Numbered from the stretch's first letter, positions 1,186 through 56,807 are shown. The stretch is 58,836 nt of DNA from a virus (IMGVR_UViG_3300025120_000054:1-58836); one strand, 5' to 3'. Notes: a model not told the origin generated them from the letters alone. Numbers and translations: made by a program.

Positions 1186-1193
1186 TACCTTTG
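1186..1193 (+). promoter_or_regulatory. -7 promoter element TACCTTTG for groEL operon
   Basis: TAnnTTTG about 20 bp before ATG 1215. Confidence 0.7.
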
Positions 1194-1214
1194 ACCAAAT
1201 CAAATCCAATACAT

Positions 1215-31021: not shown

Positions 31022-34000
31022 ATGTTTGAAGTAAAAGACCTTTACGATTTAACTTTACCAGGCGCATTTGCTTCGGCAGAAGAGTGGGTACAGTTTTCAT
31101 CATCTGCTAGTCCTGAAGACTTATATAGTTTATTGCAAGATGGTGCATTTAGTTCAGTAGAGGAATTTCAACAGCAAGTTAATTTTGGAGCATCTCCTGT
31201 AAAAAAAAAAGAAGATACGGTATCCGTATTGGAGGATGGTTCTTCGGGCTTACAAGAGCCTAGTGTTCAGGTTGAGGAAGAGCAGATTGACTTTGATCCT
31301 ATTGCAGGAGTAACAGCAATAGAAGAAACAGGGGTGCTACCCACACCACCACCACGAGATTTTACACAGCCTTTCTTAGGCCCGGTTGGAATGGACGATC
31401 CTATGTCCGTTGAGGAGCAACAGGAATTATTAAATAGATATTCTGGAGTAGAGCCTGAGAAACCTAAGCCTACAATGGTAGAGGAGGAGAGCGTTATTCA
31501 ATCTCCTTTTGGTTCACGAATGGGAGGAGGGAAACTAAAACTTCCGTCTAAAGAAGTAACTCAAAAGTACGAGCAAGAAAAAACAAAGCGAGATTTAACT
31601 AGAGATAAAGATAGAAAGATTGGATATGTCTTAAACAATTTAGATGAGAATGAAGGCGTAGCATTATTTCAAAATCTAGCATCGACACGAGGAGAGATTG
31701 CAGATGAGGAACTACAACAAATGGTAGATGTAGTTGATAAAAAAATAATAGACAACTACGGTCAAGAGGAGTATAACCTTGTTCAAAAGATTGGAGGGAA
31801 TGTAACACCTGAAGATTTATTTTATGGAGGCAACATAAGCACTTCGCCATCAGTTGTTGATAACTTAATTGTTGAAGGCGATGAGACTGCTACAGTAACG
31901 AACTTAAACAATGAGTTTGATGGAACACCATTTACTTTTTCAGAAGCTATATGGGGGTCAGATGCATTGGAGGTTAACGTGACAGATGGTGATGGCAGGG
32001 TTATAAATAGTAAAATTGTACGGATAGATGATGCTGCTAAAGCGAGCCAACAGCTAAGAGATTTTATGGCAAAGACCAATCTCTCAAAGGGTAATAAAGA
32101 ATTTTTGAATGAAGGTAAAATTAATGGTAAAGACATTAAAAAACTTTCAAGCGAGGAACAGAGTTTAGCCGAGTATAAGTATATGTTAGAGAACAAAGAT
32201 AAGTTCTCCGCAGGTAAGGGTACAGGATTTAGTATGGATGCAAATGCCATCATGCGTTTCGTGGAAGACAACCCTAACTTCTTTCCTCCTGAAGAATTGC
32301 AAAGCATAAAGCTACAACTTGATGAAGCATTGGCAGACCAATACAAAGAAGATGAGCAACTAGAAGGTTCATTTTTTGGTTCATTGGGGGAGTCTTTTGT
32401 TAAAGGCTTAATGCAGACTCCTAAGTTTGCCACTAACCTTGCGATTGATATAGGAGGGGCTTTGATGCCTAGTATGTTTATACCTGCTAATCCAAATAGT
32501 GCTATAAACTTTGACAAGAATGGTAATCGATTGTCGGATAGTGAGATTGTAGACAGAGTCAAAAAGCGAGCAAAAAGAGATATGATAGCCGCAATGGACA
32601 ACGCTGTTGAATCATCCTTTACTGGTACTACCCAAGCGTGGATGAATAGTGAGGAGAGAAATGATTATGCAAAAGCATTAAACTTTTTGTTTGAAAGTCT
32701 TGGAGTTGTGGCTTCTACAGGTGGTAGATTTTTAAAAGTAAAGCCTGGGATGACAGCGAAACAGATAGCAGCTATACAAAAAACTGCTAAAACACGAAAT
32801 GCTTTAGCGTTCTTTGCATATGCCGCCAATGGTATCGAAGATGAAATGGCAGGTACTGAATACGATGAATTGTCTGAGTGGAAAAAGAAACTTATATCAT
32901 TTCCATATGGAGTAATGATTGGTGCTTTAGAAAATTTAGGATGGGAGGCATCAACAGGTGCGTTTGGAAATAAGGTGTTCGACAAGATTTCTAGAAATAT
33001 AATCAGTAAGGCGTTAAAGAGTGTCCCTAAAGATGCATCTGAAGAAGTTATTAAAACAGCAATAGAAAATAGCACTAGGGCAGCAATAGCAGATGGTACA
33101 ATTAAAATTATTAGTGGTGCTTTAAGTGAAGGATTTGTTGAAGGAACTCAAGAGTTTGGCGATGTTGGTTTAAAGAATATAGTCAATGGTATGATGGAGA
33201 AGGATTACTTTGCTGACGCTCCTGATTTAACTACACTAAAAGGAGTGAGAGAAACTTATGATCAAGCAAAAGAGTCTGGGTATTATGGCTTTATGGCAGG
33301 TTCTGGTGCAGCAGGTGGTGGAGGCTTGATTCAATCAGGTAAAAAAGCATTGCGAAGAGATGCTGACATCCGAGAGTATAATGAGCGAAAGGAGGCACAT
33401 ACCAACGAGACTCAAAGAAACAAATTAATTTATAATATTACTAACGCACAAAGACAGGGACAATTAACTGCCGAACAAGCAGAGGCTGCAAAAGAAAAAG
33501 TTCTTGAGGATGCTGCTACCTTTGAACAGATACCTAATGAGGGGCTATCTAATAAAAATAAATTAGAATCATTTGATTTAATTACTGAAAGAAACAATCT
33601 AGAGAAAGAGATTGCCGGAAAGAATGAAGAGCTTGTTACGAAACAGAAGGATCGTATACGAGATATTAATGCACAACTAACAATAATAGGAACACAAGAT
33701 GCCACTACAGAGCAAGAATCAAGCGACTTGGATGAGGATCAACAAGCCTCAGATGTACAAGGAATGGAGGAAGGAACACCCCAACCAGAACCTGAGCAAG
33801 TTACCGCTGAAGAAGTTGAAGTCAAAGAAGAATTAAAACCTACCGAGGAACAACGTGAGAAGCTAGAGAAGAAGGCAGTACGAGAGTTAAAGAGAGAGAA
33901 TCGTCAGACTAGAAGAAAAGGATTTAAGGGGGATAGAGTTAAAGGTACTCGTAAGAAGTATGAGCCTACTCAAAAAGATATTGATGCTAGAGTTGATGAG

Positions 34001-37000
34001 TTATTTCAAGCACAGCAACAAGAAGACCAAGAGGTATTAGACCTTGAGGCTGCGATTGAGGGTGAGGTCAAAGAGGGTAGGGTATTGCCTAGCGAGACTA
34101 CTGCTGTTGAAGAAGTAACTACTGAGGAAGCACCTGTAGCTGAGACAGTGGTTGAGGAAGAGGTGACTACCGAGGAAGCACCTGTTGCTGAAGAGGAGAA
34201 AAAAATAGTAGATGGGGAAGTAGGTGATACATTTAAAAGTAATAGGGGTACAGAAGTTATTGTTAAGAAAACTAAAAACAACATTATAACTCAAAGCAAA
34301 ACTGAAATGATTGACCCTGCCAATCAAAAAGATTTTGGGTTAAAAAACGTCACTAAAATTTATGAGCAGATTTATGGTGACAAAATGAATGAAACTAATT
34401 CTGTTCCAAAACTTAATGTATATTCAAACACATCGATAGTTACTGGTAAAAAAATAAGCAAACAGCGAGAAGAAACTCCTACAAAGAAAGCACCCACCAA
34501 GACAAAGGTTGATGGTGTAGTGATGAGCGATAAGAAGCGAAGCAAGAAGGAGCAGGCTCTTGTAGACAGAGCCAAGCGAGCTGCTAAGTCATTGACAAAG
34601 ATTGGTGAGGGAGGTGTAACCGTAGAGGTGCATGATGACACCGATAGCTTTAAGAACGTTACAGGGCAAGATGGGCGTGGTGCATACGACAAGACTAGCA
34701 ACACAATCCATATCAACTTATCCAAGGCTAACAATACCACCGTTGCACACGAGGCGTTTCACGCAGTGCTACTACAGAGGGTAAGTAATACCGCTGATGT
34801 AACCAAGACAATGTTCGATGCTGTGCGTAAGGCAGGTAAGGGAGACACGAGAGTGATGGAGTACACCACTACTAAAGTGGTTGATGGAAAGACTGAGACT
34901 GTGACTGAAACCTCTACAGTTGAGGAGTACTTAGAAGACTTTGCTAGCAAATATGAGGAGAACATTCAAGACGAAGAGAAGCTCGCTGAGTTGACAGGTC
35001 TACTCGCCTCAAGTTATGTTAACCTTGCACCTGCACCGAAGTCAAAGGTGCGTCAATGGGTGGACAAGGTGATGACTCCTATCGCAAAAAGACTAGGTAT
35101 AAAGGTTGAAGAGTTTACCGATACTGATCAGGGCGTTGTTGATTTGTTGAATGCAATCTCTGCCAAGGTAACAATAGGTGAAGAGATTCAAGAGGGAGAT
35201 GTTAAGGTGCTTGAGGAGATAGAGACTAAACCTGAGACCAAGAAGAAAGGTAAGACAAAGAAAATAAGCTGGACTAAAAAGCAATCTAAGCCACAGGGGG
35301 AGTCAACTCAAAAAACAAAAGAGGTTCAAGCAAAGATAAGAGACTTGGTTAAAAGGTATGAGGGTGGTGAGATTACCATTGAGGAATACAATAAGCAAGC
35401 CGATGATATCATTCCTGTTAAAATGAAGGAAGTGTTTGTCGATCCCGTAACACAAGAGGAACTGATGGTTGGTTTGAAATCTAAAAACACTCAAACAAAT
35501 TCTCCTATAAAAGAAGGCGCGGATGTAAGTCTTAGAATAGACATACCATTTATGAAGCGTACAGGAAAGGCTTCGGTTACAATACACGAAAGAAAAAGTC
35601 CAAAAGATATAACAGGTCGTGTGCTTTCTTATAGAGGCTCTGCTGTTATAAAGGATGTAGAGTTCTTGGTTAATCCAAAGCAATCACTTGCATTTGCTAC
35701 AGATAATAAAGTACACAAGAGTAGTAACTTAGGACGAATGGGTGGTAAGTTAGTTGACATTGGTAAGACTATTGAGGAGCAGAACGAGGCGGCTAAGAAG
35801 TTATCTCAACAAGCAATTGACGAAGGGTGGACACAGGTTGGTATTAACCCTGCAAAACATTCATACTTCTATGACCGATCCACCGGGAAACCTTTGAAGA
35901 GTGCTGACAGAGTTGTTCAGGTAGGAGACCTCATCTATGCAGAGAATGCTAAGACCACTACAGTATATGACGATAGATTTATTGTCAAGGGCAAGACCGA
36001 TAAGAAGGGAGACCCACTACGTTTCCAGAAGGAGGGGGTGAGTGTTAGTGAGGACGCACAGACAGATCCTGAAGAGCAAGGAGAGGGTGGTGAAGTAGGT
36101 ACTATTAGACTACAAAAAGCAAACATACAATTCAAACCAGCTCCAGGAATAGGGACAGACACAAGATCATTTGCAAAATTCTATGAGGAAAAAAGCCTGA
36201 GAGATTTTAATGGTAAGAAGTTTGTGACTAATATGTATGACTTTACCAACGCTGGAGAAGTGGATTTGGGGAATGGATATGTTATTAATCTATGGGGTGG
36301 TAAAAGTTATGTCCCATATATGTTAGAAAAAAGAGGTAAGAATTTAGGAGAGGTTTCTAATCTTGCTGCTTTTAATACAAAAGAACAGGCTGAAACTTTT
36401 ATCAGAAATTCTAAAGAAGAAAATGCTTCTTTGTTCATACCACACTCTGGTACTACTGAAGGTTCATGGCAGTTTCAGCAATCAATATTTCAAGAGCTTA
36501 CAAATTTAGCACTAGACAAAAAGATTCTAAGCAAAAAACAATTAATATCATTGTTTAATGAATCTATTAAAAGTAAGGATGGTAAGAAAGCGTTTAAAAC
36601 TTTTGTAGAGAACTACAATAAGAAGAGAGAAAAAGAAGGAAAGAAACCAAAAAATATAAGAAACTTTAATTCTTTTATAACTAATCCTAAAGAAATAATT
36701 GAACTGCTTGACATAGAAAACAATATGTCTCCAGACTTAAGAAAGATTTTAAACTCTAAGTTTTCTACAAACAAAGCATTTAAAAAAGCGTTAGGTGTGA
36801 ATAACGCTGTTGACTTTGCATTAAGAATGGAAGACCCGTTGAATAATGGTATATCGGGGGGAGACCTTATGGGTATAATTGAGTTCGATAATACTTCTTT
36901 TAAAATAAGAAAGCCTAACAAGAACGACCCTGATTATCATCCATCGTTTGCATATACTGTTGAGGCAAAGATAAAGGGAGTGTATCAACCTACAGAGTTT

Positions 37001-40000
37001 TATAAGTCTAATGAAGTTACTGATTCCTATACAAAAAACAATAAGGATGGCACGAAGGTGTCAAGAAAAACTGACTTTACTTTAGAAGAGTATGAGCTAG
37101 CTAAAAAAGGTATTACTATTAATGATGAAGGCAAGAAAGTTAAAATGAAATCAGGGCCATTCAAAGGTACACTAGAAGAGTTTCAGGAAATGAAATTTGA
37201 AAAGGCTAATGTATCTAGTAGTGCTGGTTCAATACCAAAGGTAGCAGAGTTGTCAGAGACTGCGATGCGAGAGCAGAAGAGTCTGATGCAGATAGGTAGG
37301 TATTACAATGCCAACAACCAAGGGTTCTTCCCGTCACAAGTAAATTCATATCAACTCAAGAGAGACTTGGAGCAGATAGGATTTGGTTTGAAGCGTGCAA
37401 AGAATGGAGCGTACTACGCCACAAGAGGAGGACGTAAAGTAAATCCATTCCCACCTGAGCCAAGTAGATATAGATTCCAAAGAGATGACATTGGTATCGT
37501 AGAAGAAAAGAGTTTTACAAGTAAGAACACCGTAGCAGATATCATCATTGCTGCTAGAAGAGAAGGGTTCAAAGATAAAGCCATTAGATTCTATATACTA
37601 AAGAGGCGATCAGATATCAAGGAGGAGAATGGTAAGCCTTTGCGAGCGAAGACTGTAGATGATATGCTTAGACTACCTGCAAATATATTAGAGAATGTTC
37701 CGGATAGTTTCAAGGAGATTGAAGGTGGAGCAGCAGCAGGTCTAAGGTTGTATCAAAAGGTTGAGCAACTTAGAGATAAACTTCTTGCCGCCAACGCTAG
37801 AATAAAATCTCCTAAGTTGTCTGACGCTGGTATCAAACAAAAGATAAAGGAGAAGAGAGAGGAGTTAAAAAAGAAAAAACTTTCAGACGAGCAACTCGCC
37901 AAAGAGTTAGATGCTTTCACTAAAAGAGAATACAAGAACAACAAAGCTCGTAAAGAGATGAAGACCGAGAGTGAAATCATGGATGAGGTTATTGAGTTCT
38001 TAGAGAAACAACCTGAGTACATCGAAGCTGGTGACAAGGGTAAGAAGACACCATCTCTACTTCAGTCTAAGATGCAAGCAGAACTTCAAGCAACGATTGC
38101 CTTCCGACCCTCTAGAGAGGTGGCTCAGAATCTTTCTAAGTTAAAGAATAGAGCAAGAGCAATGGATAAGGCAGGTAGAGACCTTCAAGAAATAAAGCGC
38201 CAGCTTAGAGCAACACTTCGTAAGTCACTGCCAAAGGCTGAGTACTCTAAGCCAGAGGTGATGAGACTTATAAGTGAGATTGCAAAAGTAGATGCAAGTA
38301 ATTTACAAGACGTAATTGGAGAGATAGAAAGTCTTATTGTTAAAAAGAACGTACAAATACTAGAGGCTCAGATAGACAAGCTATTAGGGACTAAGGTTGC
38401 TAAGAGTGAGGCTGGAAGACGTAAGGGTAAGTTTGGATATGATGAAGCGGCTAGACTCGAAGCGATCAATAACAATATCGTCAAGAATAAAGATGTTGAT
38501 GGTAAGGTAGTTAAGTATACTGCTGAAGAAATCATGGAGAAAAATGAAACACTTCGAAAAGAGTTTAATGAACTGATGCGTAACCCTGACGGATTAAGCA
38601 CAGAGAATATAAATAAGCTCACCGATCTTCAGATAGCAATCAACATCAACAGTGCCAATCTAATGAAGGCAGAGTTGGCGAAGAAGGAAAGAATCAGTCC
38701 TAACATCATTGCACCATTGGTGTCAGCACAAGAGTCACTACAAGAATTAATCGAAGAGGGTCGCTCTAAATTTAAAGCAGAACTTCAAGAGGCGCATGAA
38801 GAATACCAACGTCAGTTTGCTGTGCTTTGGGAAGAGATGACAGGACAAAAGTTAGATATGTCTGACCCTGAAGTTCAGAAAACAATCAACGAAAAAATTA
38901 AAGAAAAAGAAAGTAGAGAAAGTATTAACGCTAAGAAGACTAAGTTTAGACAAAAAGTTATTAGTATTGCTGACTCTATAGGATTAGGTTTTAATAAGGC
39001 TGAAGCATTGTTTGGTTTAATGGATAAGATATCTATTATGCCAGGTGATTTAGCAGGTGGGCGTATTCAAGAAGAGATTACTGATAGGGTTAATGAATCT
39101 AGTAGGATTTATAAAGGTAGGATGTTAGTTCAAGAAGAGAACCTTGAGGATAAGATGAAAGAAATATTTGGTAAAAAGTGGAGAAAGAAAACTACTGAGT
39201 TTAACAAACTAACAATTCCATTTAAGACTTCAAATAAAAATGAAACCATATCTCAAAACCAATTAGCGTACTTATACAATCAGTATAAAGACCCGGCTAA
39301 TGCAGGTTCATTTAAAACAATGTTCGGAGAAAACTATGAGCAAGAAATGGATAAGCTCATATCAAAGTTAGATCCTCAATTAAAAGAGTGGGCAGACTGG
39401 CAGGTTGATGAATTCTTTCCATCAGTTTATGAGTACTATAATGACACATACAGAAAGATATATCGAACTGATATGCCATGGAATCAATTCTATGCAGGTA
39501 GAATATATAGAGACGGTATAGTAGATGAGCCATTAGACTTGTTAGCAAACGCTTCAATACTTAGAACCTCAGTAGGTGCAGCTTCGACATTAGAAAGAAA
39601 GAAGAATACAAACCCCATCACTGCAATGAATATCAATAATGCTTTGACAAGTTATGTTCAGGACATGGAATACTTTGCGGCATACGCAGAAACAATCAGA
39701 GATATTGATAAGATGTTTACGAATAAAAATACTACAGAATTTTTAAAGAGTAGATATGGTAATGATATAAATGATTTGATTAAGAACTCAATTCAAAAAA
39801 TCGCAGGTAAAGGGCCACAGAAATTCAAGATGGCTCGGTTCATAAATTGGAGTACCAATGCGTACATATTATCTAAACTAGCAATTAATCCTGTTGTATT
39901 TATAAAGCAGCTTACATCTATACTTACATATGCTAATGACATTGGTTATGCAAATTGGATTAGATACTCTAAAATTGGAGACACAATCGCAGGTGAACGT

Positions 40001-41077
40001 AATAAAATGAAACAAGATTATGATGAAATTATAGAGAACTCCATATACCTAAAGGATAGAGCTAAAGGATTAAGTATTAGAGATGCAATTGCTAACTATA
40101 GTAAAGGCCAAAGCAATTTTATTGAGAAAGAAAAAAGAGAGCGTATAAAAGAGTATGCAATGATGATGACCAAGGCTGGTGATAAAGCAGCGATTATGTT
40201 AGGAGGTCTTCCAAACTACAGATACTACAAAGCTCAATACAAGAAAGAGAATCCAAAGGCTACTGAGCAAGAGGTGATTGATTATGCTATTAGAAAGTTT
40301 GAGCGTGACACCAAGAATACTCAGCAGTCTAGTGACCTTCAAGATCGTGACTATTACCAAACTGATGATGGCTTAATGAGAGCATTCAATATGTTCATGA
40401 CTACACCAAAACAGTATCTAAGAAAAGAAATAGTAGCGGCTAGAAACTTAGGTAGAAAAATTAAAGCAAGAGATAGTAAAGCGGGTAAAGGAACAATAGG
40501 TGAAAACATACGTCAGTTGGTAACGTATCATGTAATGATGCCAGCATTATTTCAATGGGCAACGCTAGGATTCCCAATGGATTTTGATGATGAAGATAAA
40601 ATGGATATGATCAGAGCTGTAGTATTAGGAAACTTTAATGCTATATTTCTTGTTGGAGATGCCATTACTATGTTCGCAGATTATCTTACAGATAAGCCTT
40701 GGGCCGCAGATGCTGAATCAATACCTTTTTTAGAGTCAATAACACAGATAATAAAAGCGTTGAATAAGTGGGAAACAAAAACAAATGCTGCAAACCCAGA
40801 CCCTGACAAAATATATGATGCACAAAAAAATGTTTTTATATCGGTAGGTGAAACTTTTGGTGTGCCATTGAAACAACTTGATAGGTTTTCACAGAACTAC
40901 TACAAGCTATTTACTGAGGACATGGATAATCCTGAAAAAGTAAGGCGTGTATTAAACTATTCTGATTACACTATAGAAGGTAAGAAGGATGACAAGAAGA
41001 AGAAAGACTCAGGTAGGTCATCAGGTAGGTCATCAGGTAGGTCATCAGGTAGATCATCAGGTAGGTCTAGCAACTAG
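31022..41077 (+). CDS. Giant internal virion / polyvalent protein with zincin (HEAFH) motif
   Basis: 3351 aa; IHINL...TVAHEAFH...EEKLAE; hydrophobic Gly/Ala segments; last gene of late arm. Confidence 0.8.
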   Translation: MFEVKDLYDLTLPGAFASAEEWVQFSSSASPEDLYSLLQDGAFSSVEEFQQQVNFGASPVKKKEDTVSVLEDGSSGLQEPSVQVEEEQIDFDPIAGVTAIEETGVLPTPPPRDFTQPFLGPVGMDDPMSVEEQQELLNRYSGVEPEKPKPTMVEEESVIQSPFGSRMGGGKLKLPSKEVTQKYEQEKTKRDLTRDKDRKIGYVLNNLDENEGVALFQNLASTRGEIADEELQQMVDVVDKKIIDNYGQEEYNLVQKIGGNVTPEDLFYGGNISTSPSVVDNLIVEGDETATVTNLNNEFDGTPFTFSEAIWGSDALEVNVTDGDGRVINSKIVRIDDAAKASQQLRDFMAKTNLSKGNKEFLNEGKINGKDIKKLSSEEQSLAEYKYMLENKDKFSAGKGTGFSMDANAIMRFVEDNPNFFPPEELQSIKLQLDEALADQYKEDEQLEGSFFGSLGESFVKGLMQTPKFATNLAIDIGGALMPSMFIPANPNSAINFDKNGNRLSDSEIVDRVKKRAKRDMIAAMDNAVESSFTGTTQAWMNSEERNDYAKALNFLFESLGVVASTGGRFLKVKPGMTAKQIAAIQKTAKTRNALAFFAYAANGIEDEMAGTEYDELSEWKKKLISFPYGVMIGALENLGWEASTGAFGNKVFDKISRNIISKALKSVPKDASEEVIKTAIENSTRAAIADGTIKIISGALSEGFVEGTQEFGDVGLKNIVNGMMEKDYFADAPDLTTLKGVRETYDQAKESGYYGFMAGSGAAGGGGLIQSGKKALRRDADIREYNERKEAHTNETQRNKLIYNITNAQRQGQLTAEQAEAAKEKVLEDAATFEQIPNEGLSNKNKLESFDLITERNNLEKEIAGKNEELVTKQKDRIRDINAQLTIIGTQDATTEQESSDLDEDQQASDVQGMEEGTPQPEPEQVTAEEVEVKEELKPTEEQREKLEKKAVRELKRENRQTRRKGFKGDRVKGTRKKYEPTQKDIDARVDELFQAQQQEDQEVLDLEAAIEGEVKEGRVLPSETTAVEEVTTEEAPVAETVVEEEVTTEEAPVAEEEKKIVDGEVGDTFKSNRGTEVIVKKTKNNIITQSKTEMIDPANQKDFGLKNVTKIYEQIYGDKMNETNSVPKLNVYSNTSIVTGKKISKQREETPTKKAPTKTKVDGVVMSDKKRSKKEQALVDRAKRAAKSLTKIGEGGVTVEVHDDTDSFKNVTGQDGRGAYDKTSNTIHINLSKANNTTVAHEAFHAVLLQRVSNTADVTKTMFDAVRKAGKGDTRVMEYTTTKVVDGKTETVTETSTVEEYLEDFASKYEENIQDEEKLAELTGLLASSYVNLAPAPKSKVRQWVDKVMTPIAKRLGIKVEEFTDTDQGVVDLLNAISAKVTIGEEIQEGDVKVLEEIETKPETKKKGKTKKISWTKKQSKPQGESTQKTKEVQAKIRDLVKRYEGGEITIEEYNKQADDIIPVKMKEVFVDPVTQEELMVGLKSKNTQTNSPIKEGADVSLRIDIPFMKRTGKASVTIHERKSPKDITGRVLSYRGSAVIKDVEFLVNPKQSLAFATDNKVHKSSNLGRMGGKLVDIGKTIEEQNEAAKKLSQQAIDEGWTQVGINPAKHSYFYDRSTGKPLKSADRVVQVGDLIYAENAKTTTVYDDRFIVKGKTDKKGDPLRFQKEGVSVSEDAQTDPEEQGEGGEVGTIRLQKANIQFKPAPGIGTDTRSFAKFYEEKSLRDFNGKKFVTNMYDFTNAGEVDLGNGYVINLWGGKSYVPYMLEKRGKNLGEVSNLAAFNTKEQAETFIRNSKEENASLFIPHSGTTEGSWQFQQSIFQELTNLALDKKILSKKQLISLFNESIKSKDGKKAFKTFVENYNKKREKEGKKPKNIRNFNSFITNPKEIIELLDIENNMSPDLRKILNSKFSTNKAFKKALGVNNAVDFALRMEDPLNNGISGGDLMGIIEFDNTSFKIRKPNKNDPDYHPSFAYTVEAKIKGVYQPTEFYKSNEVTDSYTKNNKDGTKVSRKTDFTLEEYELAKKGITINDEGKKVKMKSGPFKGTLEEFQEMKFEKANVSSSAGSIPKVAELSETAMREQKSLMQIGRYYNANNQGFFPSQVNSYQLKRDLEQIGFGLKRAKNGAYYATRGGRKVNPFPPEPSRYRFQRDDIGIVEEKSFTSKNTVADIIIAARREGFKDKAIRFYILKRRSDIKEENGKPLRAKTVDDMLRLPANILENVPDSFKEIEGGAAAGLRLYQKVEQLRDKLLAANARIKSPKLSDAGIKQKIKEKREELKKKKLSDEQLAKELDAFTKREYKNNKARKEMKTESEIMDEVIEFLEKQPEYIEAGDKGKKTPSLLQSKMQAELQATIAFRPSREVAQNLSKLKNRARAMDKAGRDLQEIKRQLRATLRKSLPKAEYSKPEVMRLISEIAKVDASNLQDVIGEIESLIVKKNVQILEAQIDKLLGTKVAKSEAGRRKGKFGYDEAARLEAINNNIVKNKDVDGKVVKYTAEEIMEKNETLRKEFNELMRNPDGLSTENINKLTDLQIAININSANLMKAELAKKERISPNIIAPLVSAQESLQELIEEGRSKFKAELQEAHEEYQRQFAVLWEEMTGQKLDMSDPEVQKTINEKIKEKESRESINAKKTKFRQKVISIADSIGLGFNKAEALFGLMDKISIMPGDLAGGRIQEEITDRVNESSRIYKGRMLVQEENLEDKMKEIFGKKWRKKTTEFNKLTIPFKTSNKNETISQNQLAYLYNQYKDPANAGSFKTMFGENYEQEMDKLISKLDPQLKEWADWQVDEFFPSVYEYYNDTYRKIYRTDMPWNQFYAGRIYRDGIVDEPLDLLANASILRTSVGAASTLERKKNTNPITAMNINNALTSYVQDMEYFAAYAETIRDIDKMFTNKNTTEFLKSRYGNDINDLIKNSIQKIAGKGPQKFKMARFINWSTNAYILSKLAINPVVFIKQLTSILTYANDIGYANWIRYSKIGDTIAGERNKMKQDYDEIIENSIYLKDRAKGLSIRDAIANYSKGQSNFIEKEKRERIKEYAMMMTKAGDKAAIMLGGLPNYRYYKAQYKKENPKATEQEVIDYAIRKFERDTKNTQQSSDLQDRDYYQTDDGLMRAFNMFMTTPKQYLRKEIVAARNLGRKIKARDSKAGKGTIGENIRQLVTYHVMMPALFQWATLGFPMDFDDEDKMDMIRAVVLGNFNAIFLVGDAITMFADYLTDKPWAADAESIPFLESITQIIKALNKWETKTNAANPDPDKIYDAQKNVFISVGETFGVPLKQLDRFSQNYYKLFTEDMDNPEKVRRVLNYSDYTIEGKKDDKKKKDSGRSSGRSSGRSSGRSSGRSSN
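33699..33836 (+). CDS. Nested +1-frame basic protein, 45 aa (MPLQSKNQATWMRINKP...)
   Basis: Translated by hand; resembles MPFKSxxQ small phage proteins; A-rich leader. Confidence 0.6.
   Translation: MPLQSKNQATWMRINKPQMYKEWRKEHPNQNLSKLPLKKLKSKKN
41009..41068 (+). repeat. 12-bp tandem repeat x5 (tcaggtaggtca) encoding (SGRS)5
   Basis: Seen directly at the C-terminus of the giant gene. Confidence 0.9.
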
Positions 41078-45069: not shown

Positions 45070-45957
45070 TTATATACTATCATTATCCCAATTTAAATCT
45101 AACTCAGTCTGAGATCTAGCAGATAAGTCATTAATACCACACATACCATTGCAGTCAAATAGAGGTTCAACATTTCTCTCAGGCATATCATCTAAGCATT
45201 TGTTGTTAGGATACAATGGATGCTTCTTTAAGAAAACTAAATGAGCTTTCTTATCAGTCTTCATCTTTTCCTTTGCTTCATTTGACTGATCCTTTAGCAT
45301 CGTAACAGGACTACCTCTTAACTCAGTAAGCTCATGCTCTAAGTCAGACATCACCTCGAACTTTTCGGGAAAGTTCTTACGCATCTTCTGCCAATAACCT
45401 ATACCTCCTTGAACACATCCTGTTGAAAAGCAATTATTGTTTTTAAAACCTAGCTTATACATCTCAGGTATCTCAATGCCTGCTTCCTGAACTATGTCAA
45501 TGCACTTCTGTTTGTCATATCCAAGTAGAAGCAATGGGTATATAGGCTTTGCTCTATCGTAATAGTTCTTGGTCATAGACAAAGCACGAGCGAACTCCTT
45601 CTTGTCAAATTCAAATCCAAACACTTGATGTTTAAAATCATTCTTCTTCTCCCACTTCTGTCTGACCAACCTCTTTAAATGTGTAGAACATATTGCTCCA
45701 GTCGCTGTGTTAAGAGACTTGAACTTTCTCCATACGTCAAATATGTTTCCATACTTCTCACCTATCCCTGAGATAGTTTCAATAGACAATCCATACCACT
45801 GCTCACAGTCCTCCTTAAATCTATAGGTGTCGGGATGTTCATTCTTAGTATCAATCATAATGACTCTACAATTATCAACACCATACATATCAATAGCAAT
45901 CTTACACGCTACTGCTGATGTTATACCACCACTCCACCAACCAATTATCTTCTCCAT
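45070..45957 (-). CDS. PAPS-reductase-like (PP-loop) protein
   Basis: WSGGITS, CSTHLKR, YPL, NNNC..GCV.GG.GYW, C-terminal CxxxC. Confidence 0.85.
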   Translation of the reverse strand: MEKIIGWWSGGITSAVACKIAIDMYGVDNCRVIMIDTKNEHPDTYRFKEDCEQWYGLSIETISGIGEKYGNIFDVWRKFKSLNTATGAICSTHLKRLVRQKWEKKNDFKHQVFGFEFDKKEFARALSMTKNYYDRAKPIYPLLLLGYDKQKCIDIVQEAGIEIPEMYKLGFKNNNCFSTGCVQGGIGYWQKMRKNFPEKFEVMSDLEHELTELRGSPVTMLKDQSNEAKEKMKTDKKAHLVFLKKHPLYPNNKCLDDMPERNVEPLFDCNGMCGINDLSARSQTELDLNWDNDSI

Positions 45958-45960
45958 ATC

Positions 45961-48396
45961 TTAAAATTCAAAGTCGTTATTGTCTATAGTAGGACTAGCC
46001 TTGATCTTCCTAATCTTTATCCATCTACCACTCATATCACGACCCTCTTCTGGTGCGAGCTTGGTGTGGTACATACAGAAAGCGTGAAGCCATTTATAAA
46101 ATTTGGTTCGGCTCACAGTCATCTTTGCCTTGGGAGCAAAGTCAGGATTGTCTTGAATGAAATCAAAGTATAAGTCCTGCTTCAATGTCCTTGTTCCTAA
46201 TGAGAAGTTTTTAAACACCTCGTTAGGCTCATTGCCATCCACCAATCCACACCACTCTATAAACTCGTGACAAGTCTCGGCAGATAACTTACGGATGCTA
46301 AGGTTTACGAAGGTAGACTTTATCAATCCAGTGTCTAGGTATCTACTCAAGCATCGGATCATGTAGTTATCAAACTGACACCACTCATTGTCATCCCACT
46401 CACCGAACATTAACTTACCGAACTCATCCATCGGAGTGTAGTCCTTGGTATAGTATTGATTCAGCTCCAGTTCCCACTTACGTCTCTCGAAACTATTCCC
46501 AGCACCCTTGATGGCGTAGTTGGTTGTAATTGTAATCTTAGGAGACTTACTGAATGGTATCTTGATAGCGTCCTTATTCTTCTTCTCAAGCGTTAATCCT
46601 TCGGTGACCACACTAAACAACCTCTCGAAGTCAAAGTGCTTTCTAACGTCATCAAAACATAGTATCTGAGTGTCTGCACTAACCAATTGATATGCAAAGC
46701 TACGCTCAAAGTTAAATGACTTACCATCTATGACCACCAACTTCTTCAGTTGAGAGAGTGCATTCATAAACAACCCCTTCCCTGTACCTCCTTCGGGGTG
46801 ATCACTAATCACCTCATCATTAAGAATTACAGCTGGGCAATATCCCAAATCTTTATATGCGTGCATAAGAAATCCTATCGTAGACTCCATAGACTTAGCT
46901 CTCTCCTCATCCGATCCGCATATGTTGTACACAAACTTTTGAAAGTCGCACTTGACAATGTCACATATGCTAAACACCCTGTCAATCACATGGTCTTTCC
47001 AAACGTATCCACCCAGGTCTAGGTAGTCAATCATCTCCACCCCCACCTTGGTCACCTTCACTGCCGCATTGCGATAGTAAAGATAAGCAGCACTCTTGGT
47101 GTCCTCGATAAAGAACACATCAATGCTACCCAGAAGTGTCAAGAACTCCTCTCGAAAGTATCTAGTGTTATCGGCAAAGTAATTGTACACCTGAGCATCA
47201 TCCAATTCCAATAGGTATTCTAGTATAAAATCTTTGATGTCCTTCTCAGATGTATGGTCGATGAGGTTGTTAGTAACCTTTACGAACACATAGTTCTTAC
47301 TACCCTCTGGGTTGTATTTGTAGAAGCCATTGTCCTCAAGAAACTTCTTGAAAGATATGTGTACAATTTTTATTACACCCCGGTCAGACTTTGTCCAGAA
47401 CTTTTGATTGGATGTCTCTTCTTCAAGCCTGCCAATGACAGCCTCGGCTACACCATCATCAATCGAAGAGTCTAGAAGTTGATGACGGATTTCTTTTTTT
47501 GATATTCCCCTCCTCATTTGAGACTTGACAGTATTTATCTTGTCCTCATCCTCATAGTACTTTGTTCCAAACGCTTGTGTGTTTGTGTACGCAGAATCAA
47601 TAGTCCTCTTTATCTCTGAGGAATTAAAATCCTTTGTCGCATAGTTGGCTAACACATACTCAGTCAAGCTCTTGTTAACACCGAACTCATTCATAGCCAT
47701 AGCCAACACATATACGTTGTGGTTTCGTTGCCCCTCCACCATTGGATACTTTTTCTCCCACCATTTAACTAGGATGTCTACAATCTTATTCTCATCTGTG
47801 ATGGGTATGGTTGCTCGATCTTTAAACTTTACTACCTCTTTAAAGTTGTCATCCTTAATATCTGTCCATACACTAGATTGAGGATTGATATAAATTAAAG
47901 GATCATAACTCTCGTAACAAACTCGACTCACATTCTTGCTTGTCTTGTCAAAGTGTTCCGAGTTAAAGTGTTCGTCTAATGCATTGAAATAATTTTTGTG
48001 GTTGTCCCCATCGTCAGGAATCTTTACCAAGACCTTGAGTCCTTTACCAGATGGTGATATAAATATAGAGTACACATAGTTGTCCTTGCTATATAGTTCC
48101 TTTACCTCTAGCAAATCCTTCTGCTTCTTGTAGCCATCAAAGTCTAGGCATATCAATCCACTATGCTTCATCAATGATGAATCAGTTCTTTTGTTAAACT
48201 TTCCAGAGAAACATATTGCCGGGAGCTGTTGCTTTAGTTCATTGATTACTATCTTATCCTTCTCTTTTCTAATCCTCTTAATTAATTCCTTAGACGATCC
48301 TTCTTTTATTCTTTCTAAGATAAATTCTACATTTCTAAAGAATGGTTGCTCAGTAGTTTTGATGTCTCTGAATATAGTTATGTCGTTTTCTGTCAT
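45961..48396 (-). CDS. Primase-helicase (BT4734/VirE-N-like domain, PriCT-like domain, P-loop helicase)
   Basis: KQQLP, HSGLICLDFD, SPSGKGLK, GQRN, GGTGKG, FDD. Confidence 0.88.
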   Translation of the reverse strand: MTENDITIFRDIKTTEQPFFRNVEFILERIKEGSSKELIKRIRKEKDKIVINELKQQLPAICFSGKFNKRTDSSLMKHSGLICLDFDGYKKQKDLLEVKELYSKDNYVYSIFISPSGKGLKVLVKIPDDGDNHKNYFNALDEHFNSEHFDKTSKNVSRVCYESYDPLIYINPQSSVWTDIKDDNFKEVVKFKDRATIPITDENKIVDILVKWWEKKYPMVEGQRNHNVYVLAMAMNEFGVNKSLTEYVLANYATKDFNSSEIKRTIDSAYTNTQAFGTKYYEDEDKINTVKSQMRRGISKKEIRHQLLDSSIDDGVAEAVIGRLEEETSNQKFWTKSDRGVIKIVHISFKKFLEDNGFYKYNPEGSKNYVFVKVTNNLIDHTSEKDIKDFILEYLLELDDAQVYNYFADNTRYFREEFLTLLGSIDVFFIEDTKSAAYLYYRNAAVKVTKVGVEMIDYLDLGGYVWKDHVIDRVFSICDIVKCDFQKFVYNICGSDEERAKSMESTIGFLMHAYKDLGYCPAVILNDEVISDHPEGGTGKGLFMNALSQLKKLVVIDGKSFNFERSFAYQLVSADTQILCFDDVRKHFDFERLFSVVTEGLTLEKKNKDAIKIPFSKSPKITITTNYAIKGAGNSFERRKWELELNQYYTKDYTPMDEFGKLMFGEWDDNEWCQFDNYMIRCLSRYLDTGLIKSTFVNLSIRKLSAETCHEFIEWCGLVDGNEPNEVFKNFSLGTRTLKQDLYFDFIQDNPDFAPKAKMTVSRTKFYKWLHAFCMYHTKLAPEEGRDMSGRWIKIRKIKASPTIDNNDFEF

Positions 48397-51204: not shown

Positions 51205-51503
51205 GAAGCAATGTGTTTAGCAACTGTTCTTATATCTCCATCGCTTCTCATTTTCTTCAGCATTGTAGTGTGGTGATGGATGATCGTAGAATGTGGTGTT
51301 GGCAACCCCATTTCTTCCATAAAATTTTCAATGTGCTTAATGCGAATTTTTCTTTTTACGCACAAGTAAAATAGCATCTGTCTAGCATCCGCTATCCTCC
51401 TTTGTTTTGTTTTAGAAAACATTTCTTCTTTAGATATTCCATGCGTCTTACAAACTTGAGACACATAATCCTTGAAGACCTTACCTTCTTGTAGATAAAT
51501 CAT
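51192..51503 (-). CDS. DnaA C-terminal-like HTH protein
   Basis: SKTKQRRIADARQMLFYL...HSTIIH. Confidence 0.75.
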   Translation of the reverse strand: MIYLQEGKVFKDYVSQVCKTHGISKEEMFSKTKQRRIADARQMLFYLCVKRKIRIKHIENFMEEMGLPTPHSTIIHHHTTMLKKMRSDGDIRTVAKHIASCVD

Positions 51504-51529
51504 ATTACTTTATTTTATTTAATTTATAG

Positions 51530-51606
51530 AGGGTATGAGGGGAATCGAACCCCCCTGTACCTCGCAGATTATTAAACCAGAAAACAAATCATTCTGCAAA
51601 TACCCT
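51530..51606 (-). ncRNA. tRNA-like RNA (acceptor stem and T arm; no D or anticodon arm)
   Basis: AGGGTAT/ATACCCT 7-bp stem, GGGGG-TTCGATT-CCCCT, single TTGCAGA/TCTGCGA arm. Confidence 0.65.
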
Positions 51607-51669
51607 AAACTATTATGAACATTTAAAACTACACAAATTATATCATTTGTACAAATCTTTTCTATAAAA

Positions 51670-52464
51670 TTATAGTTGTGACTCAGATAATTCCCATAGC
51701 ATTTTATTTATTCTGAGATTCTCATCGATGGATGTTACCTTTCTGGATTTGCTGTAGATAATTTTATCCCCATCCTTTCTGGTGGTATCTAATCCTCCAT
51801 TGATTAACTTCTCCTGTACCCTGTTAAATACAGTCCATAGATCGTTTCCTTTGTCGGCTGACCTATTTACTTTTAAAAGTTGTTCAATGTCTACAGCACG
51901 ACCATCATTCCATCTCTTGTTTACTGACTCAATACCAAACTTAAATCTTTCTTCAGCAGACAATTCAACAGACATCATTTCTTTTACTTTGTCAAACAAG
52001 CTGGGTATGTTGGATGTAATTTTGTCTACCGTTTCTATGATGTCAGTCTCCTTCAATCCCTTGTGGATGATTGTATGTTTGCCGAAAGTTTTGTCTGCAA
52101 TTACAAGCCCATTAGAACACACCAAACGAAAGAGTCCAATGTGAAATTTAAACGCTGACCGGCCATCATGTGAATTAGTTACCACGATCTCCGGGCAAGT
52201 GTCGCTAGACATTTCTGTATTTGAAAACATTTTGTTTGGGTTTCGAAATCTCAGGATGTGTTTTTTGAACGGAGCTGTATGCTCATTTCCTTTTCTGTTT
52301 CGTACCTGGATTGCATGTGTAGGCATCCAGTTTCTTTTCTTTAAAATGTCTACCACAGATGCAGTTGATATGTGGTTGTAGACTTTTGACAAGTGTTCTG
52401 ACTGTTCATTAGTGAACACTGAAGGGCATTCCTCCATGATTTGATTTGATTGTAAATAATCCAT
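51670..52464 (-). CDS. DUF932/DUF945 family protein
   Basis: KHILRFR, NSHDG, GLFRLVCSNGL, LWTVFNRVQE. Confidence 0.88.
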   Translation of the reverse strand: MDYLQSNQIMEECPSVFTNEQSEHLSKVYNHISTASVVDILKKRNWMPTHAIQVRNRKGNEHTAPFKKHILRFRNPNKMFSNTEMSSDTCPEIVVTNSHDGRSAFKFHIGLFRLVCSNGLVIADKTFGKHTIIHKGLKETDIIETVDKITSNIPSLFDKVKEMMSVELSAEERFKFGIESVNKRWNDGRAVDIEQLLKVNRSADKGNDLWTVFNRVQEKLINGGLDTTRKDGDKIIYSKSRKVTSIDENLRINKMLWELSESQL

Positions 52465-56630: not shown

Positions 56631-56807
56631 TTATCTGGTTCTAAATAATAATTGCTCTTGTCTCTTAGCATATCTACCAGATGGTGTTCTGGATGCTAAC
56701 ATTCTGCATTTTGCTTCCTTCAAAATACGCATGTGCTGAATGGATTTTTGCCCATTGTAATCGAATGCTTTTGTTCTTAATCTGTTAACTAATTTTTGGT
56801 AATTCAT
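56631..56807 (-). CDS. Small basic protein, 58 aa, directly downstream of the hammerhead
   Basis: Translated by hand (MNYQKLVNRLRTKAF...). Confidence 0.6.
   Translation of the reverse strand: MNYQKLVNRLRTKAFDYNGQKSIQHMRILKEAKCRMLASRTPSGRYAKRQEQLLFRTR

What the first reader, a model, noticed from the sequence alone, without database searches (positions are those of the whole stretch)
51530..51606. tRNA-like RNA in which D and anticodon arms are replaced by one hairpin
Seen on the - strand: a 7-bp acceptor-like stem (AGGGUAU/AUACCCU), a canonical T arm (GGGGG-UUCGAUU-CCCCU), and between them one arm UUGCAGA...UCUGCGA enclosing AUGAUUUGUUUUCUGGUUUAAUAA. There is no D arm, no 7-nt anticodon loop and no encoded CCA. 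It ends 26 nt before the DnaA-CTD-like gene. Established: acceptor stem plus T arm is what RNase P, RNase Z and CCA-adding enzyme recognise. Inference: a tRNA mimic released as a stable small RNA, a decoy, or a processing signal.
Basis: partly seen in the sequence, partly recalled or inferred. Interest (0 to 1): 0.75.

Follow-up and report, generated by a model that had tools for sequence, protein, structure and literature searches.

The report
Anticodon-less tRNA-like RNA in phage leader
A marine flavobacterial phage carries, right behind a promoter and in front of its replication genes, a small RNA fold that keeps the top half of a tRNA but has no anticodon, and its shape has been preserved by evolution, so it probably serves as a handle for the host's tRNA-cutting enzymes rather than for decoding.

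Summary
On the minus strand at 51606-51530 lies a 77-nt fold: a 7-bp acceptor-like stem, a T arm with loop UUCGAUU, and one 7-bp hairpin with a 24-nt loop. It has no D arm, no anticodon loop and no CCA. It ends 26 nt before a DnaA_C-HTH gene. ARAGORN and Rfam call nothing. A strict scan finds it once in the window and 0 times in 1500 simulated windows. Eight distinct versions exist in close relatives. All 160 stem cells pair, and two acceptor pairs show compensatory double changes. The T loop and the GGUACA junction never vary. The element follows a Bacteroidota-type promoter-like box by about 17 nt, so it would be the first structure of the transcript for the replication/recombination genes. 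Four relatives lack it and have nothing in its place. None carries a normal tRNA there. One relative keeps the cassette although the genes on both sides were exchanged. Best reading (0.5): a tRNA-derived module cut out by host RNase P and RNase Z. This would release a non-decoding tRNA mimic and set the mRNA 5' end, like plant mitochondrial t-elements. Expression and processing are untested. No antisense target was found in the phage.

The parts
51652..51655 (-). TTTG, candidate -33 promoter box (part of the palindrome TTTGTACAAA)
   Evidence: Read. Kept in relatives with and without the element; L027 has CTTG here. The Bacteroidetes -33/-7 consensus TTTG/TANNTTTG is taken from passages of PMC6847099. 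Promoter activity is inferred.
51624..51631 (-). TAGTTTTA, candidate -7 promoter box, 20 nt after the TTTG
   Evidence: 7 of 8 matches to TANNTTTG in the window. It is TAGTTTTG (8 of 8) in L027, TAATTTTA in L002 and TATATTTA in the element-less L017. The generic sigma-70 scan instead proposes TAGAAA-16-TATAAT at 51664-51637, but that TATAAT is not kept in L027.
51607..51623 (-). Short 5' leader (AAUGUUCAUAAUAGUUU) between the promoter-like box and the element
   Evidence: The core GTTCATAATAG is identical in all 8 element-bearing variants. The transcription start is inferred, not mapped.
51600..51606 (-). Acceptor-like stem, 5' strand AGGGUAU
   Evidence: Pairs 3:78 (GC, GU, AU) and 5:76 (UA, CG) co-vary.
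51593..51599 (-). Hairpin stem, 5' strand UUGCAGA
   Evidence: 7 of 7 pairs are kept in 8 variants; 2 pairs change only between wobble and Watson-Crick.
51569..51592 (-). Hairpin loop of 24 nt (24-27 nt in relatives), with conserved core AUUUGUUUUCURGUU and variable, indel-rich flanks
   Evidence: Alignments A2 and A5. A possible weak 4-bp inner helix is predicted by RNAalifold.
51562..51568 (-). Hairpin stem, 3' strand UCUGCGA
51556..51561 (-). Single-stranded junction GGUACA between the hairpin and the T arm
   Evidence: Invariant in all 8 variants.
51537..51555 (-). T arm: GGGGGG / UUCGAUU / CCCCUC (6 bp, or 5 bp plus a junction pair)
   Evidence: matches the tmRNA T arm. GGTTCRANYCC lies at 51541-51551. 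The loop is invariant. One stem pair switches between G-U and A-U.
51530..51536 (-). Acceptor-like stem, 3' strand AUACCCU, followed by C then UAUAAA (no CCA)
51504..51529 (-). A-rich 26-nt spacer up to the start codon, with no Shine-Dalgarno sequence and A at -3
   Evidence: Predicted unpaired in the consensus fold of the 172-column alignment. Bacteroidetes initiation features are taken from passages of PMC6847099.
51192..51503 (-). First gene behind the element: 103-aa DnaA C-terminal HTH protein. It is followed on the same strand by a 131-aa ORF, a Sak annealing protein and a PD-(D/E)XK exonuclease.
   Evidence: Pfam: Bac_DnaA_C 5.9e-09, SSAP_Sak 1.1e-29, DUF3799 6.8e-20. ORF map.
51670..52464 (-). 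Upstream gene, DUF932 protein (264 aa). It is context only and not a fixed partner of the element.
   Evidence: Pfam DUF932 2.9e-30. In L027 a C-5 cytosine methylase gene takes its place.

Best explanation
The element is a tRNA-derived RNA module that no longer decodes. It keeps the part of a tRNA that processing enzymes read: a 7-bp acceptor stem stacked on a T arm with a canonical T loop. One long hairpin replaces the D and anticodon arms. It would be transcribed as the first structure of the phage's replication/recombination operon, about 17 nt after a Bacteroidota-type promoter-like box and 26 nt before the first start codon. The most likely mechanism has three steps. Host RNase P cuts at the 5' side of the acceptor stem. 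Host RNase Z cuts just after the acceptor stem, and the host CCA-adding enzyme may then extend the 3' end. This excises an RNA of about 78 nt that resembles a tRNA but cannot decode, and it also creates the mature short A-rich 5' end of the downstream mRNA. Shown here: the fold, its orientation, its position, purifying selection on its stems, and its persistence as a cassette. Inferred: transcription, the two cuts, CCA addition, and any role of the released RNA.
For: The fold is real and unlikely by chance: 1 hit in the window against 0 in 1500 simulated windows. All seven variants folded singly give the three-helix MFE; L027 was not folded on its own.

Selection acts on the fold. In 8 distinct sequences, 160 of 160 stem cells pair. 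With the 3' partners slid by 1-3 columns only 44-65% pair. Two acceptor pairs have double compensatory changes, and three further pairs change only between wobble and Watson-Crick (7-sequence version). Columns 5 and 76 occur only as U..A or C..G. Column 56, which lies between them, is found in all four combinations with each of them (read). The T loop and the GGUACA junction are invariant, while the hairpin-loop flanks carry substitutions and indels.

It is tRNA-like only on the strand on which all neighbouring genes are read. In a 172-column context, RNAalifold recovers the element as a self-contained module and leaves the start-codon region unpaired.

The promoter-like box is kept in relatives with and without the element. 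In L027 the box, leader, element and spacer are almost unchanged (102.9 bits). Yet the upstream gene there is a methylase instead of DUF932, and the DnaA_C gene is only 43% identical. Sak further downstream is 91% identical.

The host is very probably a flavobacterium: all 86 of 87 TerL matches that are named phages infect Flavobacteriia; the 87th is an uncultured virus. The Bacteroidota control genome matches the RNase Z model (which of the 9 genomes pass its cut-off is not given) and passes the cut-off of the CCA-enzyme model; the phage has neither. Two of three tRNA genes in a Flavobacterium phage also lack an encoded CCA, so a missing CCA is normal for this group.

A precedent exists. Plant mitochondrial t-elements carry the same GGTTCRANYCC motif and sit upstream of mRNA 5' ends, which RNase Z is thought to create (passages of PMC1920247). 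RNase P cuts several non-tRNA phage RNAs (passage of PMC11143913).
Against: There is no evidence of transcription, of RNA ends or of a CCA tail. The comparative set is small and close: 8 sequences with mean column identity 92%. Only 2 pairs have double changes, and 208 of 500 column shuffles reach that count, although only 4 of 500 reach the observed pairing percentage and covariation score.

The single-sequence z-score is modest (-1.80). In a 163-nt context the single-sequence MFE replaces the acceptor stem with other pairings, although that structure has a frequency of only 0.0066.

The stacked acceptor plus T helix is 13 bp (7+6) instead of the canonical 12. Alternatively it is 12 with a U-C mismatch at 7:66 in the other register. 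There is no D loop to form the elbow that RNase P also reads. Both features could weaken recognition.

The element is dispensable: 4 of 12 metagenome relatives (DUF932 85% and 64% identical) lack it.
Confidence: 0.5

Rival explanations
1. The fold stays on the mRNA as a cis-acting 5'-terminal structure. It would protect the transcript from 5'-end-dependent decay or tune initiation at the nearby start codon, and it would not be cut out.
For: It lies about 17 nt behind the promoter-like box and 26 nt before the ATG. The consensus fold keeps the start region unpaired. In Flavobacterium, translation initiation depends on structure and A-rich sequence near the start (passages of PMC6847099). The cassette always precedes a DnaA_C gene, even after that gene was exchanged for another allele.
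Against: A plain hairpin would be enough to stabilise a 5' end. It would not explain an invariant canonical T loop, a flush 7-bp acceptor stem or an invariant junction. Those are the features tRNA enzymes read, so escaping cleavage would itself need explaining.
Confidence: 0.2
2. It is a decaying tRNA gene or a neutral remnant of a captured tRNA, with no function of its own.
For: The acceptor stem, U8-like position, T arm and an AGGU-type stretch before the T stem look tRNA-derived. The only genome hit for its T arm plus 3' acceptor strand is a real tRNA-His. The element has a narrow distribution and is missing from close relatives. The loop flanks are rich in indels.
Against: No stem pair is broken in any of 8 variants. 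All 7 variable stem columns preserve pairing, including one double change. Sites 5 and 76 remain linked although the site between them has been shuffled. No relative has an intact tRNA at this locus from which it could be decaying. The cassette survived gene replacement on both sides.
Confidence: 0.1
3. It is a base-pairing regulator of the P1 C4 / P4 CI type. In that case it would be cut from the head of the operon, and its conserved U-rich loop would pair with a target in a phage or host mRNA.
For: The layout matches the P1 immI operon, where c4 precedes icd and ant and C4 RNA acts on that operon (passages of PMC8198154). C4 is an RNase P substrate (PMC11143913). The loop core AUUUGUUUUCURGUU is conserved.
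Against: The best complementarity to the loop anywhere else in the window is 15 bp with score 29. Eight shuffled loops reach 27-39. The one candidate at a start codon (56633-56623) does not change with the loop in L005. Rfam shows no C4 match at E<=10. Host targets could not be searched.
Confidence: 0.07
4. It acts at the DNA level as an attachment site, an origin or priming signal, or a recombination hot spot at a mosaic joint.
For: Phage attachment sites often copy tRNA 3' parts (general knowledge). The intergenic region is a mosaic joint: in L017 DUF932 is 85% identical but DnaA_C only 54%, and in L027 the genes on both sides are exchanged. A DnaA-box-binding-type HTH gene and a primase-helicase gene are nearby.
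Against: The complete genome has no tyrosine or serine recombinase. An attachment site needs only one tRNA half, not a compensated 5' acceptor strand. The junction plus T arm pattern is absent from one genome of each of 185,579 species. The tRNA-like reading exists only on the transcribed strand.
Confidence: 0.05
5. It is a working but aberrant decoding tRNA, for example D-armless or intron-bearing.
For: The total length of 77 nt is tRNA-like. At thresholds lowered to 80%, ARAGORN does draw tRNAs over it.
Against: ARAGORN calls nothing in 3 of 3 variants in standard, intron and two mitochondrial modes. The relaxed calls disagree with each other: an undefined 2-nt anticodon in the window, Thr in L002, Asn in L012. 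The supposed anticodon region is the most variable and indel-rich part. No 7-nt loop is conserved.
Confidence: 0.02

Closest known systems
Plant mitochondrial t-elements (tRNA-like processing signals)
   Same: Both are non-canonical tRNA-like folds with the T-arm motif GGTTCRANYCC. Both sit next to mRNAs in the same transcript, including upstream of mRNA 5' ends thought to be made by RNase Z. The excised t-elements were detected with non-encoded C or CCA-type additions (passages of PMC1920247). This is the closest analogue in how it would work.
   Different: t-elements occur in a eukaryotic organelle and share no ancestry with this element. Here the host would be a bacterium with RNA-based RNase P, the element is the first structure behind a promoter in a phage, and no cleavage has been shown.
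YrlA / bacterial Y RNA tRNA-like domain
   Same: It is a bacterial and phage non-coding RNA that mimics the acceptor stem and T arm and lacks a working anticodon arm. M. smegmatis YrlA is cut by RNase P and receives CCA (passages of PMC4201824).
   Different: YrlA is encoded next to Ro60/Rsr, carries a Ro-binding helix and the GNCGAAN0-1G motif, and has a D arm. This window has no TROVE gene, no Rfam match, no such motif in the 77 nt and no D arm.
tRNA-like domain of tmRNA
   Same: An acceptor stem plus T arm without an anticodon arm. The T arm is the only part of the element that matches an Rfam model.
   Different: The scores are 9.4 and 14.4 bits against a cut-off of 47. The element is 77 nt, with no pseudoknots. 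G3:U70 is present in only 3 of 8 variants and absent in the window. The 6-codon reading frame in the window's loop has its ATG in only 2 of 8 variants (window and L014).
C4 antisense RNA of phages P1/P7 (and, from recall, CI RNA of P4)
   Same: A small phage RNA at the head of an operon, matured by RNase P (PMC11143913; PMC8198154). Its length of about 77 nt is recalled, not read.
   Different: C4 works by loop-to-mRNA pairing inside its own operon. No such complementarity was found here. There is no Rfam match, and C4 has no canonical T arm (recalled).
mascRNA (MALAT1-associated tRNA-like RNA)
   Same: A tRNA-like small RNA cut from a longer transcript that does not decode (abstract shown in the listing; processing by RNase P and RNase Z with CCA addition is recalled).
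   Different: It is eukaryotic and nuclear, lies at the 3' end of a long non-coding RNA, and has a full cloverleaf-like fold.
Ordinary tRNA-mRNA co-transcripts (for example tRNA genes ahead of tufB in E. coli; recalled)
   Same: A tRNA-shaped unit transcribed ahead of an mRNA from one promoter and separated from it by tRNA-processing nucleases.
   Different: Those are real decoding tRNAs. This unit has no anticodon arm.

Membership tests
tRNA (canonical or organellar) | 7-bp acceptor stem directly stacked on a T arm with a UUCRANY loop | tested here: met
   The stacked helix is 7+6 bp, or 7+5 with a U-C mismatch in the alternative register.
tRNA (canonical or organellar) | Anticodon arm with a 5-bp stem and a 7-nt loop | tested here: not met
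   The only other arm has a 7-bp stem and a 24-27-nt loop that varies in length.
tRNA (canonical or organellar) | D arm, or a D-replacement loop together with an anticodon arm | tested here: not met
   No second arm exists between the acceptor and T stems. The GG in the loop is AG in 6 of 8 variants.
tRNA (canonical or organellar) | Recognised by tRNA finders or covariance models | tested here: not met
   ARAGORN: 0 in the window. It also gives 0 of 3 variants in standard, intron, -mt and -mtmam modes. Rfam: nothing at gathering score.
tmRNA | Match to the Rfam tmRNA models at gathering score | tested here: not met
   9.4 and 14.4 bits against 47, over the T arm only. ARAGORN tmRNA mode gives 0.
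tmRNA | G3:U70 alanine identity pair and a conserved tag reading frame | tested here: not met
   Pair 3:70 is GC in 4 variants, GU in 3 and AU in 1. The ATG of the loop mini-frame is present in only 2 of 8 variants.
YrlA / Y RNA | Encoded beside a Ro60 (TROVE) gene | tested here: not met
   PF05731 has 0 matches in the complete 58,836-nt genome. The control genomes D. radiodurans and B. thetaiotaomicron do match.
YrlA / Y RNA | Ro-binding helix with the GNCGAAN0-1G motif, and an Rfam match | tested here: not met
   The motif is not present in the 77 nt. There is no Rfam hit even at E<=10.
C4 antisense RNA (P1/P7 type) | Loops complementary to a target in the downstream operon | tested here: not met
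   The best non-self pairing scores 29, within the range 27-39 reached by 8 shuffled loops. The candidate at 56633 does not co-vary.
C4 antisense RNA (P1/P7 type) | Maturation by RNase P | not testable with these tools
   This needs an enzyme assay or RNA end mapping.
t-element-like processing signal (a functional class, not a homologous family) | Non-canonical tRNA-like fold containing GGTTCRANYCC | tested here: met
   GGTTCGATTCC at 51541-51551. Motif definition from PMC1920247.
t-element-like processing signal (a functional class, not a homologous family) | Lies in the same transcript, immediately next to an mRNA end | tested here: inconclusive
   The position between the promoter-like box and the ATG fits. 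The transcript and its ends are not mapped, and the public runs gave only contigs.
t-element-like processing signal (a functional class, not a homologous family) | Cleaved by RNase P and/or RNase Z; non-templated C or CCA on the excised RNA | not testable with these tools
   No raw RNA reads were available.

The most novel reading that the evidence does not exclude
The excised RNA is the point of the element, not a by-product. In this reading the phage makes, as the very first product of its replication operon, an anticodon-less tRNA mimic that acts in trans on a host factor that reads the tRNA acceptor/T-arm 'top half'. Candidates are a tRNA-directed defence nuclease or a tRNA-modifying, processing or sensing protein, which the mimic would titrate or mislead during infection. 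The conserved U-rich loop and the invariant GGUACA junction would be the specific contact surface. This would be a non-coding tRNA-decoy counter-measure in a bacteriophage, carried as an exchangeable promoter-plus-RNA cassette.
Probability: 0.15. Interest if true: 0.85.

Novelty: new variant of a known kind. Interest (0 to 1): 0.55.

Why it matters
tRNA-shaped RNAs that do not decode are known from organelles, eukaryotic nuclei, plant viruses and a few bacterial systems (tmRNA, Y RNAs). I found no description of one in a bacteriophage 5' leader. This rests on six answered full-text searches with tRNA-like, phage, RNase P, anticodon, leader, Cellulophaga and pseudo-tRNA terms. If host RNase P and RNase Z do cut the element, it would show that phages of Bacteroidota use the host tRNA-processing machinery to shape an early mRNA, in a phylum where mRNA leaders work without Shine-Dalgarno sequences. 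It would also supply a compact natural RNA of about 78 nt for asking what the tRNA top half alone can recruit. Relatives exist with the element, without it, and with different neighbouring genes, so a comparative test is already available.

Tried and rejected
**Expression.**
- One run search listed 4 coded runs holding 9-12% of the sampled words.
- Laying them gave only Logan contigs at depth 3.5 or less. Two short contigs cross part of the element: X3 covers 51483-51606 and X1 covers 51555-52010. Two of the runs, X3 among them, are flagged 'probably DNA'; X1 is flagged only as a guess at RNA.
- Nothing can be said about transcription, ends or strand.

**Antisense target.**
- A whole-window scan with the loop and a covariation check of four candidates found nothing above shuffled controls.
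- A first, heavier RNAduplex script returned no answer.

**Other copies.**
- Model R1 finds only the element itself in the window (the next hit is 12.8 bits, E 1.3).
- It finds nothing in G001, MW202828 or MW202701, and a real tRNA-Ser at 17.9 bits in a Flavobacterium phage.

**Distant relatives.**
- Phages with a DnaA_C gene 37-38% identical (L004, MW202828) and phages with a DUF932 gene 32-36% identical have no element at the matching place.

**Pattern scans.**
- Junction plus T arm: 1-2 viral contigs and 0 of 185,579 species genomes.
- T arm plus 3' acceptor strand: 1 genome hit, a tRNA-His(GUG) of an uncultured gammaproteobacterium at 22.1 bits to R1. I treat this as a chance resemblance.
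- Hairpin plus loop core: 8 viral stretches, of which 2 are true members (L005, L027).
- The other 6 lack an acceptor stem and T arm. L026, L028, L029, L030 and L032 gave weak R1 matches of 14.6-20.1 bits; L031 gave no match at E<=1.
- ORF position was checked for three of them. L026 and L028 lie antisense inside ORFs of 702 and 779 aa. L031 overlaps no ORF of 60 aa or more.

**Other ideas rejected.**
- tmRNA-like mini-frame: rejected, because its ATG is present in only 2 of 8 variants.
- Internal sigma-70 promoter TTGCAG-N17-TTTAAT inside the element: rejected by eye, because neither the spacing nor the -10 box is kept in relatives.
- Long-range pairing of the 5' leader with the start-codon region: it appears in a single-sequence MFE but not in the consensus fold, and its outer GUAG/CUAC pairs are not kept in L002.
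- Attachment site: no integrase or resolvase gene.
- Phage-encoded tRNA enzymes: no RNase Z or CCA-enzyme domain. Nothing tRNA-related appeared among the 26 window ORFs scanned.

**Not available.**
- Hartmann et al. 1995 on C4 and RNase P is not held. I cite only its title as listed in PMC11143913.

Full report
**What is there**

The window is a complete 58,836-nt virus record with direct terminal repeats. On the minus strand, 51606-51530 reads AGGGUAU-UUGCAGA-(24-nt loop)-UCUGCGA-GGUACA-GGGGGG-UUCGAUU-CCCCUC-AUACCCU, followed by CUAUAAA.
- a 7-bp acceptor-like stem;
- one 7-bp hairpin with a 24-nt loop;
- a 6-nt junction;
- a T arm with a canonical T loop, placed flush against the 3' acceptor strand;
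- no D arm, no 7-nt anticodon loop and no CCA.

It ends 26 nt before the ATG of a 103-aa protein with a DnaA C-terminal HTH domain (Pfam 5.9e-09). RNAfold gives this fold as the MFE (-23.8 kcal/mol) with a modest z-score of -1.80.

Standard finders do not call it. ARAGORN finds 0 genes in the window. Rfam finds 0 families at gathering score. At E<=10 only the T arm matches tmRNA models, far below their cut-off.

A second numbering is possible: G1-C72 with a U7-C66 mismatch and a 5-bp T stem. The single genome hit for the T arm plus 3' strand, a tRNA-His, aligns in that register. I cannot decide between the two registers.

**Is it more than chance?**

The T-arm motif alone is not significant: 1 match against 0.19 expected. 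The combination is. A strict scan for motif, T stem and flush 7-bp acceptor stem finds this element and nothing else in the window, and finds 0 hits in 1500 simulated windows. A relaxed scan produced three further weak hits. The best of those lies antisense in a coding gene and does not fold better than shuffles.

**Relatives**

- A protein-based scan of metagenome contigs with the upstream DUF932 protein returned 12 loci.
- The 8 loci with DUF932 at least 91% identical carry the element.
- The 4 others lack it (three at 85%, one at 64%). In those, the same promoter-like box is followed within about 20 nt by the ATG of the DnaA_C gene.
- No locus has a normal tRNA there.
- In the viral collection the element occurs on two further contigs: L002/L005 and L027.
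- After duplicates are removed there are 8 distinct sequences.
- More distant phages with homologous DnaA_C or DUF932 genes have no such element.
- The junction plus T arm is absent from one genome of each of 185,579 species.

**Selection on the fold**

On the 8 sequences, 160 of 160 stem cells form standard pairs. With the 3' partners slid by 1-3 columns, only 44-65% pair.
- Two acceptor pairs show changes on both sides: 5:76 is UA in 4 variants and CG in 4. 3:78 runs GC, GU, AU.
- Three further pairs switch only between wobble and Watson-Crick. None is broken (the same picture on 7 sequences).
- Columns 5 and 76 occur only as U..A or C..G. Column 56, which lies between them, occurs in all four combinations with each (read). 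The two halves of the pair have therefore stayed matched despite recombination or recurrent change between them.
- The T loop and the GGUACA junction never vary. The hairpin loop has a conserved core (AUUUGUUUUCURGUU) with variable, indel-rich flanks.
- All seven variants folded singly (window, L002, L011-L015) give the three-helix fold as MFE, with z from -1.61 to -3.47. L027 was not folded on its own.

Caveats: the set is small and close (92% mean column identity). Only two pairs are truly compensatory, and 208 of 500 column shuffles reach that count. In a 163-nt context the single-sequence MFE replaces the acceptor stem with other pairings, although the consensus fold over the same context restores it and leaves the start region open.

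**Context**

- All neighbouring genes are on the minus strand. The element is tRNA-like only on that strand.
- Upstream lies TTTG (51652-51655), then 20 nt, then TAGTTTTA (51624-51631).
- The second box is TAGTTTTG in L027, an exact match to the Bacteroidetes -33/-7 consensus TTTG/TANNTTTG (consensus from passages of PMC6847099; sequences).
- The generic sigma-70 scan proposes a different, overlapping site, but its -10 box is not kept in L027.
- On either reading the element is the first structure of the transcript, after a leader of roughly 17-25 nt.
- It is followed by a 26-nt A-rich, Shine-Dalgarno-free spacer with A at -3.
- The genes behind it are the DnaA_C protein, a 131-aa ORF, a Sak annealing protein, a PD-(D/E)XK exonuclease and, further on, a primase-helicase.
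- All 87 large-terminase matches among cultured phages are Flavobacteriia phages or one uncultured relative. The host is therefore very probably a marine flavobacterium.
- In L027 the box, leader, element and spacer are nearly identical to those of L012. Yet the upstream gene is a C-5 cytosine methylase, and the DnaA_C gene is a 43%-identical allele. Sak downstream is 91% identical.
- In L017 DUF932 is 85% identical but DnaA_C only 54%, and the element is absent.

The region is therefore a mosaic joint. The promoter-plus-RNA cassette behaves as a unit that can be kept or lost.

**What it most likely does**

The conserved parts are the stacked acceptor/T helix and the T loop. These are exactly what RNase P, RNase Z and the CCA-adding enzyme read on a tRNA (established knowledge). 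The variable part is where an anticodon would be.

I therefore favour (0.5) a tRNA-derived module that host enzymes cut out of the nascent operon transcript. This would release a non-decoding tRNA mimic and leave the mRNA with a short A-rich leader. It is the working principle of plant mitochondrial t-elements, which share the GGTTCRANYCC motif and sit at mRNA ends (PMC1920247). RNase P is known to cut other phage non-tRNA RNAs (PMC11143913).

A Bacteroidota control genome matches the RNase Z model and passes the CCA-enzyme model's cut-off, and the phage has neither. Flavobacterium phage tRNA genes often lack an encoded CCA.

All steps after 'the fold is conserved and sits behind a promoter-like box' are inference.

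**Rivals**

- A structure that stays on the mRNA as a stabiliser or initiation tuner: 0.2.
- A neutral tRNA remnant: 0.1. The unbroken, compensated stems and the survival of the cassette through gene swaps argue against it.
- A C4-like antisense RNA: 0.07. No target was found above shuffled controls.
- A DNA-level site: 0.05. There is no integrase, and a compensated 5' strand would not be needed.
- A true aberrant tRNA: 0.02. ARAGORN calls nothing in four modes, and its relaxed calls disagree with each other.

**Comparison with known kinds**

The element is not a member of the tRNA, tmRNA, YrlA or C4 families, because defining features were tested and not met (see the membership table). It works most like a t-element or mascRNA-type excised tRNA mimic.

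I found no report of such an element in a phage leader in six answered full-text searches.

**Verdict**

This is a real, conserved, tRNA-derived structured element with a narrow distribution. Its function is unproven, it is a new variant of a known kind, and it is of moderate interest.

Noticed in passing
window 51637-51655 (-) and the same place in L002, L012, L017: The candidate -33 box is part of a perfect palindrome, TTTGTACAAA. In L002 the nearby inverted repeat ACAAAT..ATTTGT becomes ACACAT..ATGTGT, changing on both arms. This could be an operator for a dimeric regulator overlapping the promoter.
   Followed up: partly
L017:2001-3162, L016, L018, L019, L027:5423-6801: The DUF932 / DnaA_C intergenic region is a mosaic joint. 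In L017 DUF932 is 85% identical but DnaA_C only 54%. L016 shares only about the first 18 codons of L017's DnaA_C-like gene and then diverges into unrelated sequence. L027 has a C-5 cytosine methylase in place of DUF932 and a 43%-identical DnaA_C allele.
   Followed up: partly
window 51569-51591 (-): In the window and in L014 the hairpin loop begins with ATG. In the window it reads as a 6-codon frame ending in TAA TAA. The ATG is missing in the other 6 variants, so it is probably not a gene.
   Followed up: yes
window 1191-2828 (+): The phage encodes a 545-aa GroEL-type chaperonin (PHROG 5725, 2e-136). Its nearest cultured matches are in Flavobacterium, Cellulophaga, Vibrio and Bacteroides phages.
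   Followed up: no
window 31022-41077 (+): A single open reading frame of 3351 aa lies in the structural gene block. It was not analysed.
   Followed up: no
window 45070-48396 (-): A PAPS-reductase-domain protein sits directly after an 811-aa primase-helicase-like protein (BT4734-like N domain, DUF5906) in the replication block. This may be a DNA-modification function.
   Followed up: no
window 45107-45191 (+): A relaxed scan picks up a weak tRNA-like pattern (7-bp stem plus a TTCAACA loop) antisense inside the PAPS-reductase gene. Its z-score is -0.66 and model R1 does not hit it, so it looks like chance.
   Followed up: yes
L028:3058-3083, L029, L030, L032, L026:4024-4050: The hairpin 5' strand plus loop core (TTGCAG..ATTTGTTTTCTRGTT) also occurs in other viral contigs with no T arm or acceptor stem. 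In L028 and L026, the two checked, it lies antisense inside long ORFs of 779 and 702 aa. This is more hits than a uniform-composition estimate would give, but it is probably T-rich coincidence.
   Followed up: partly
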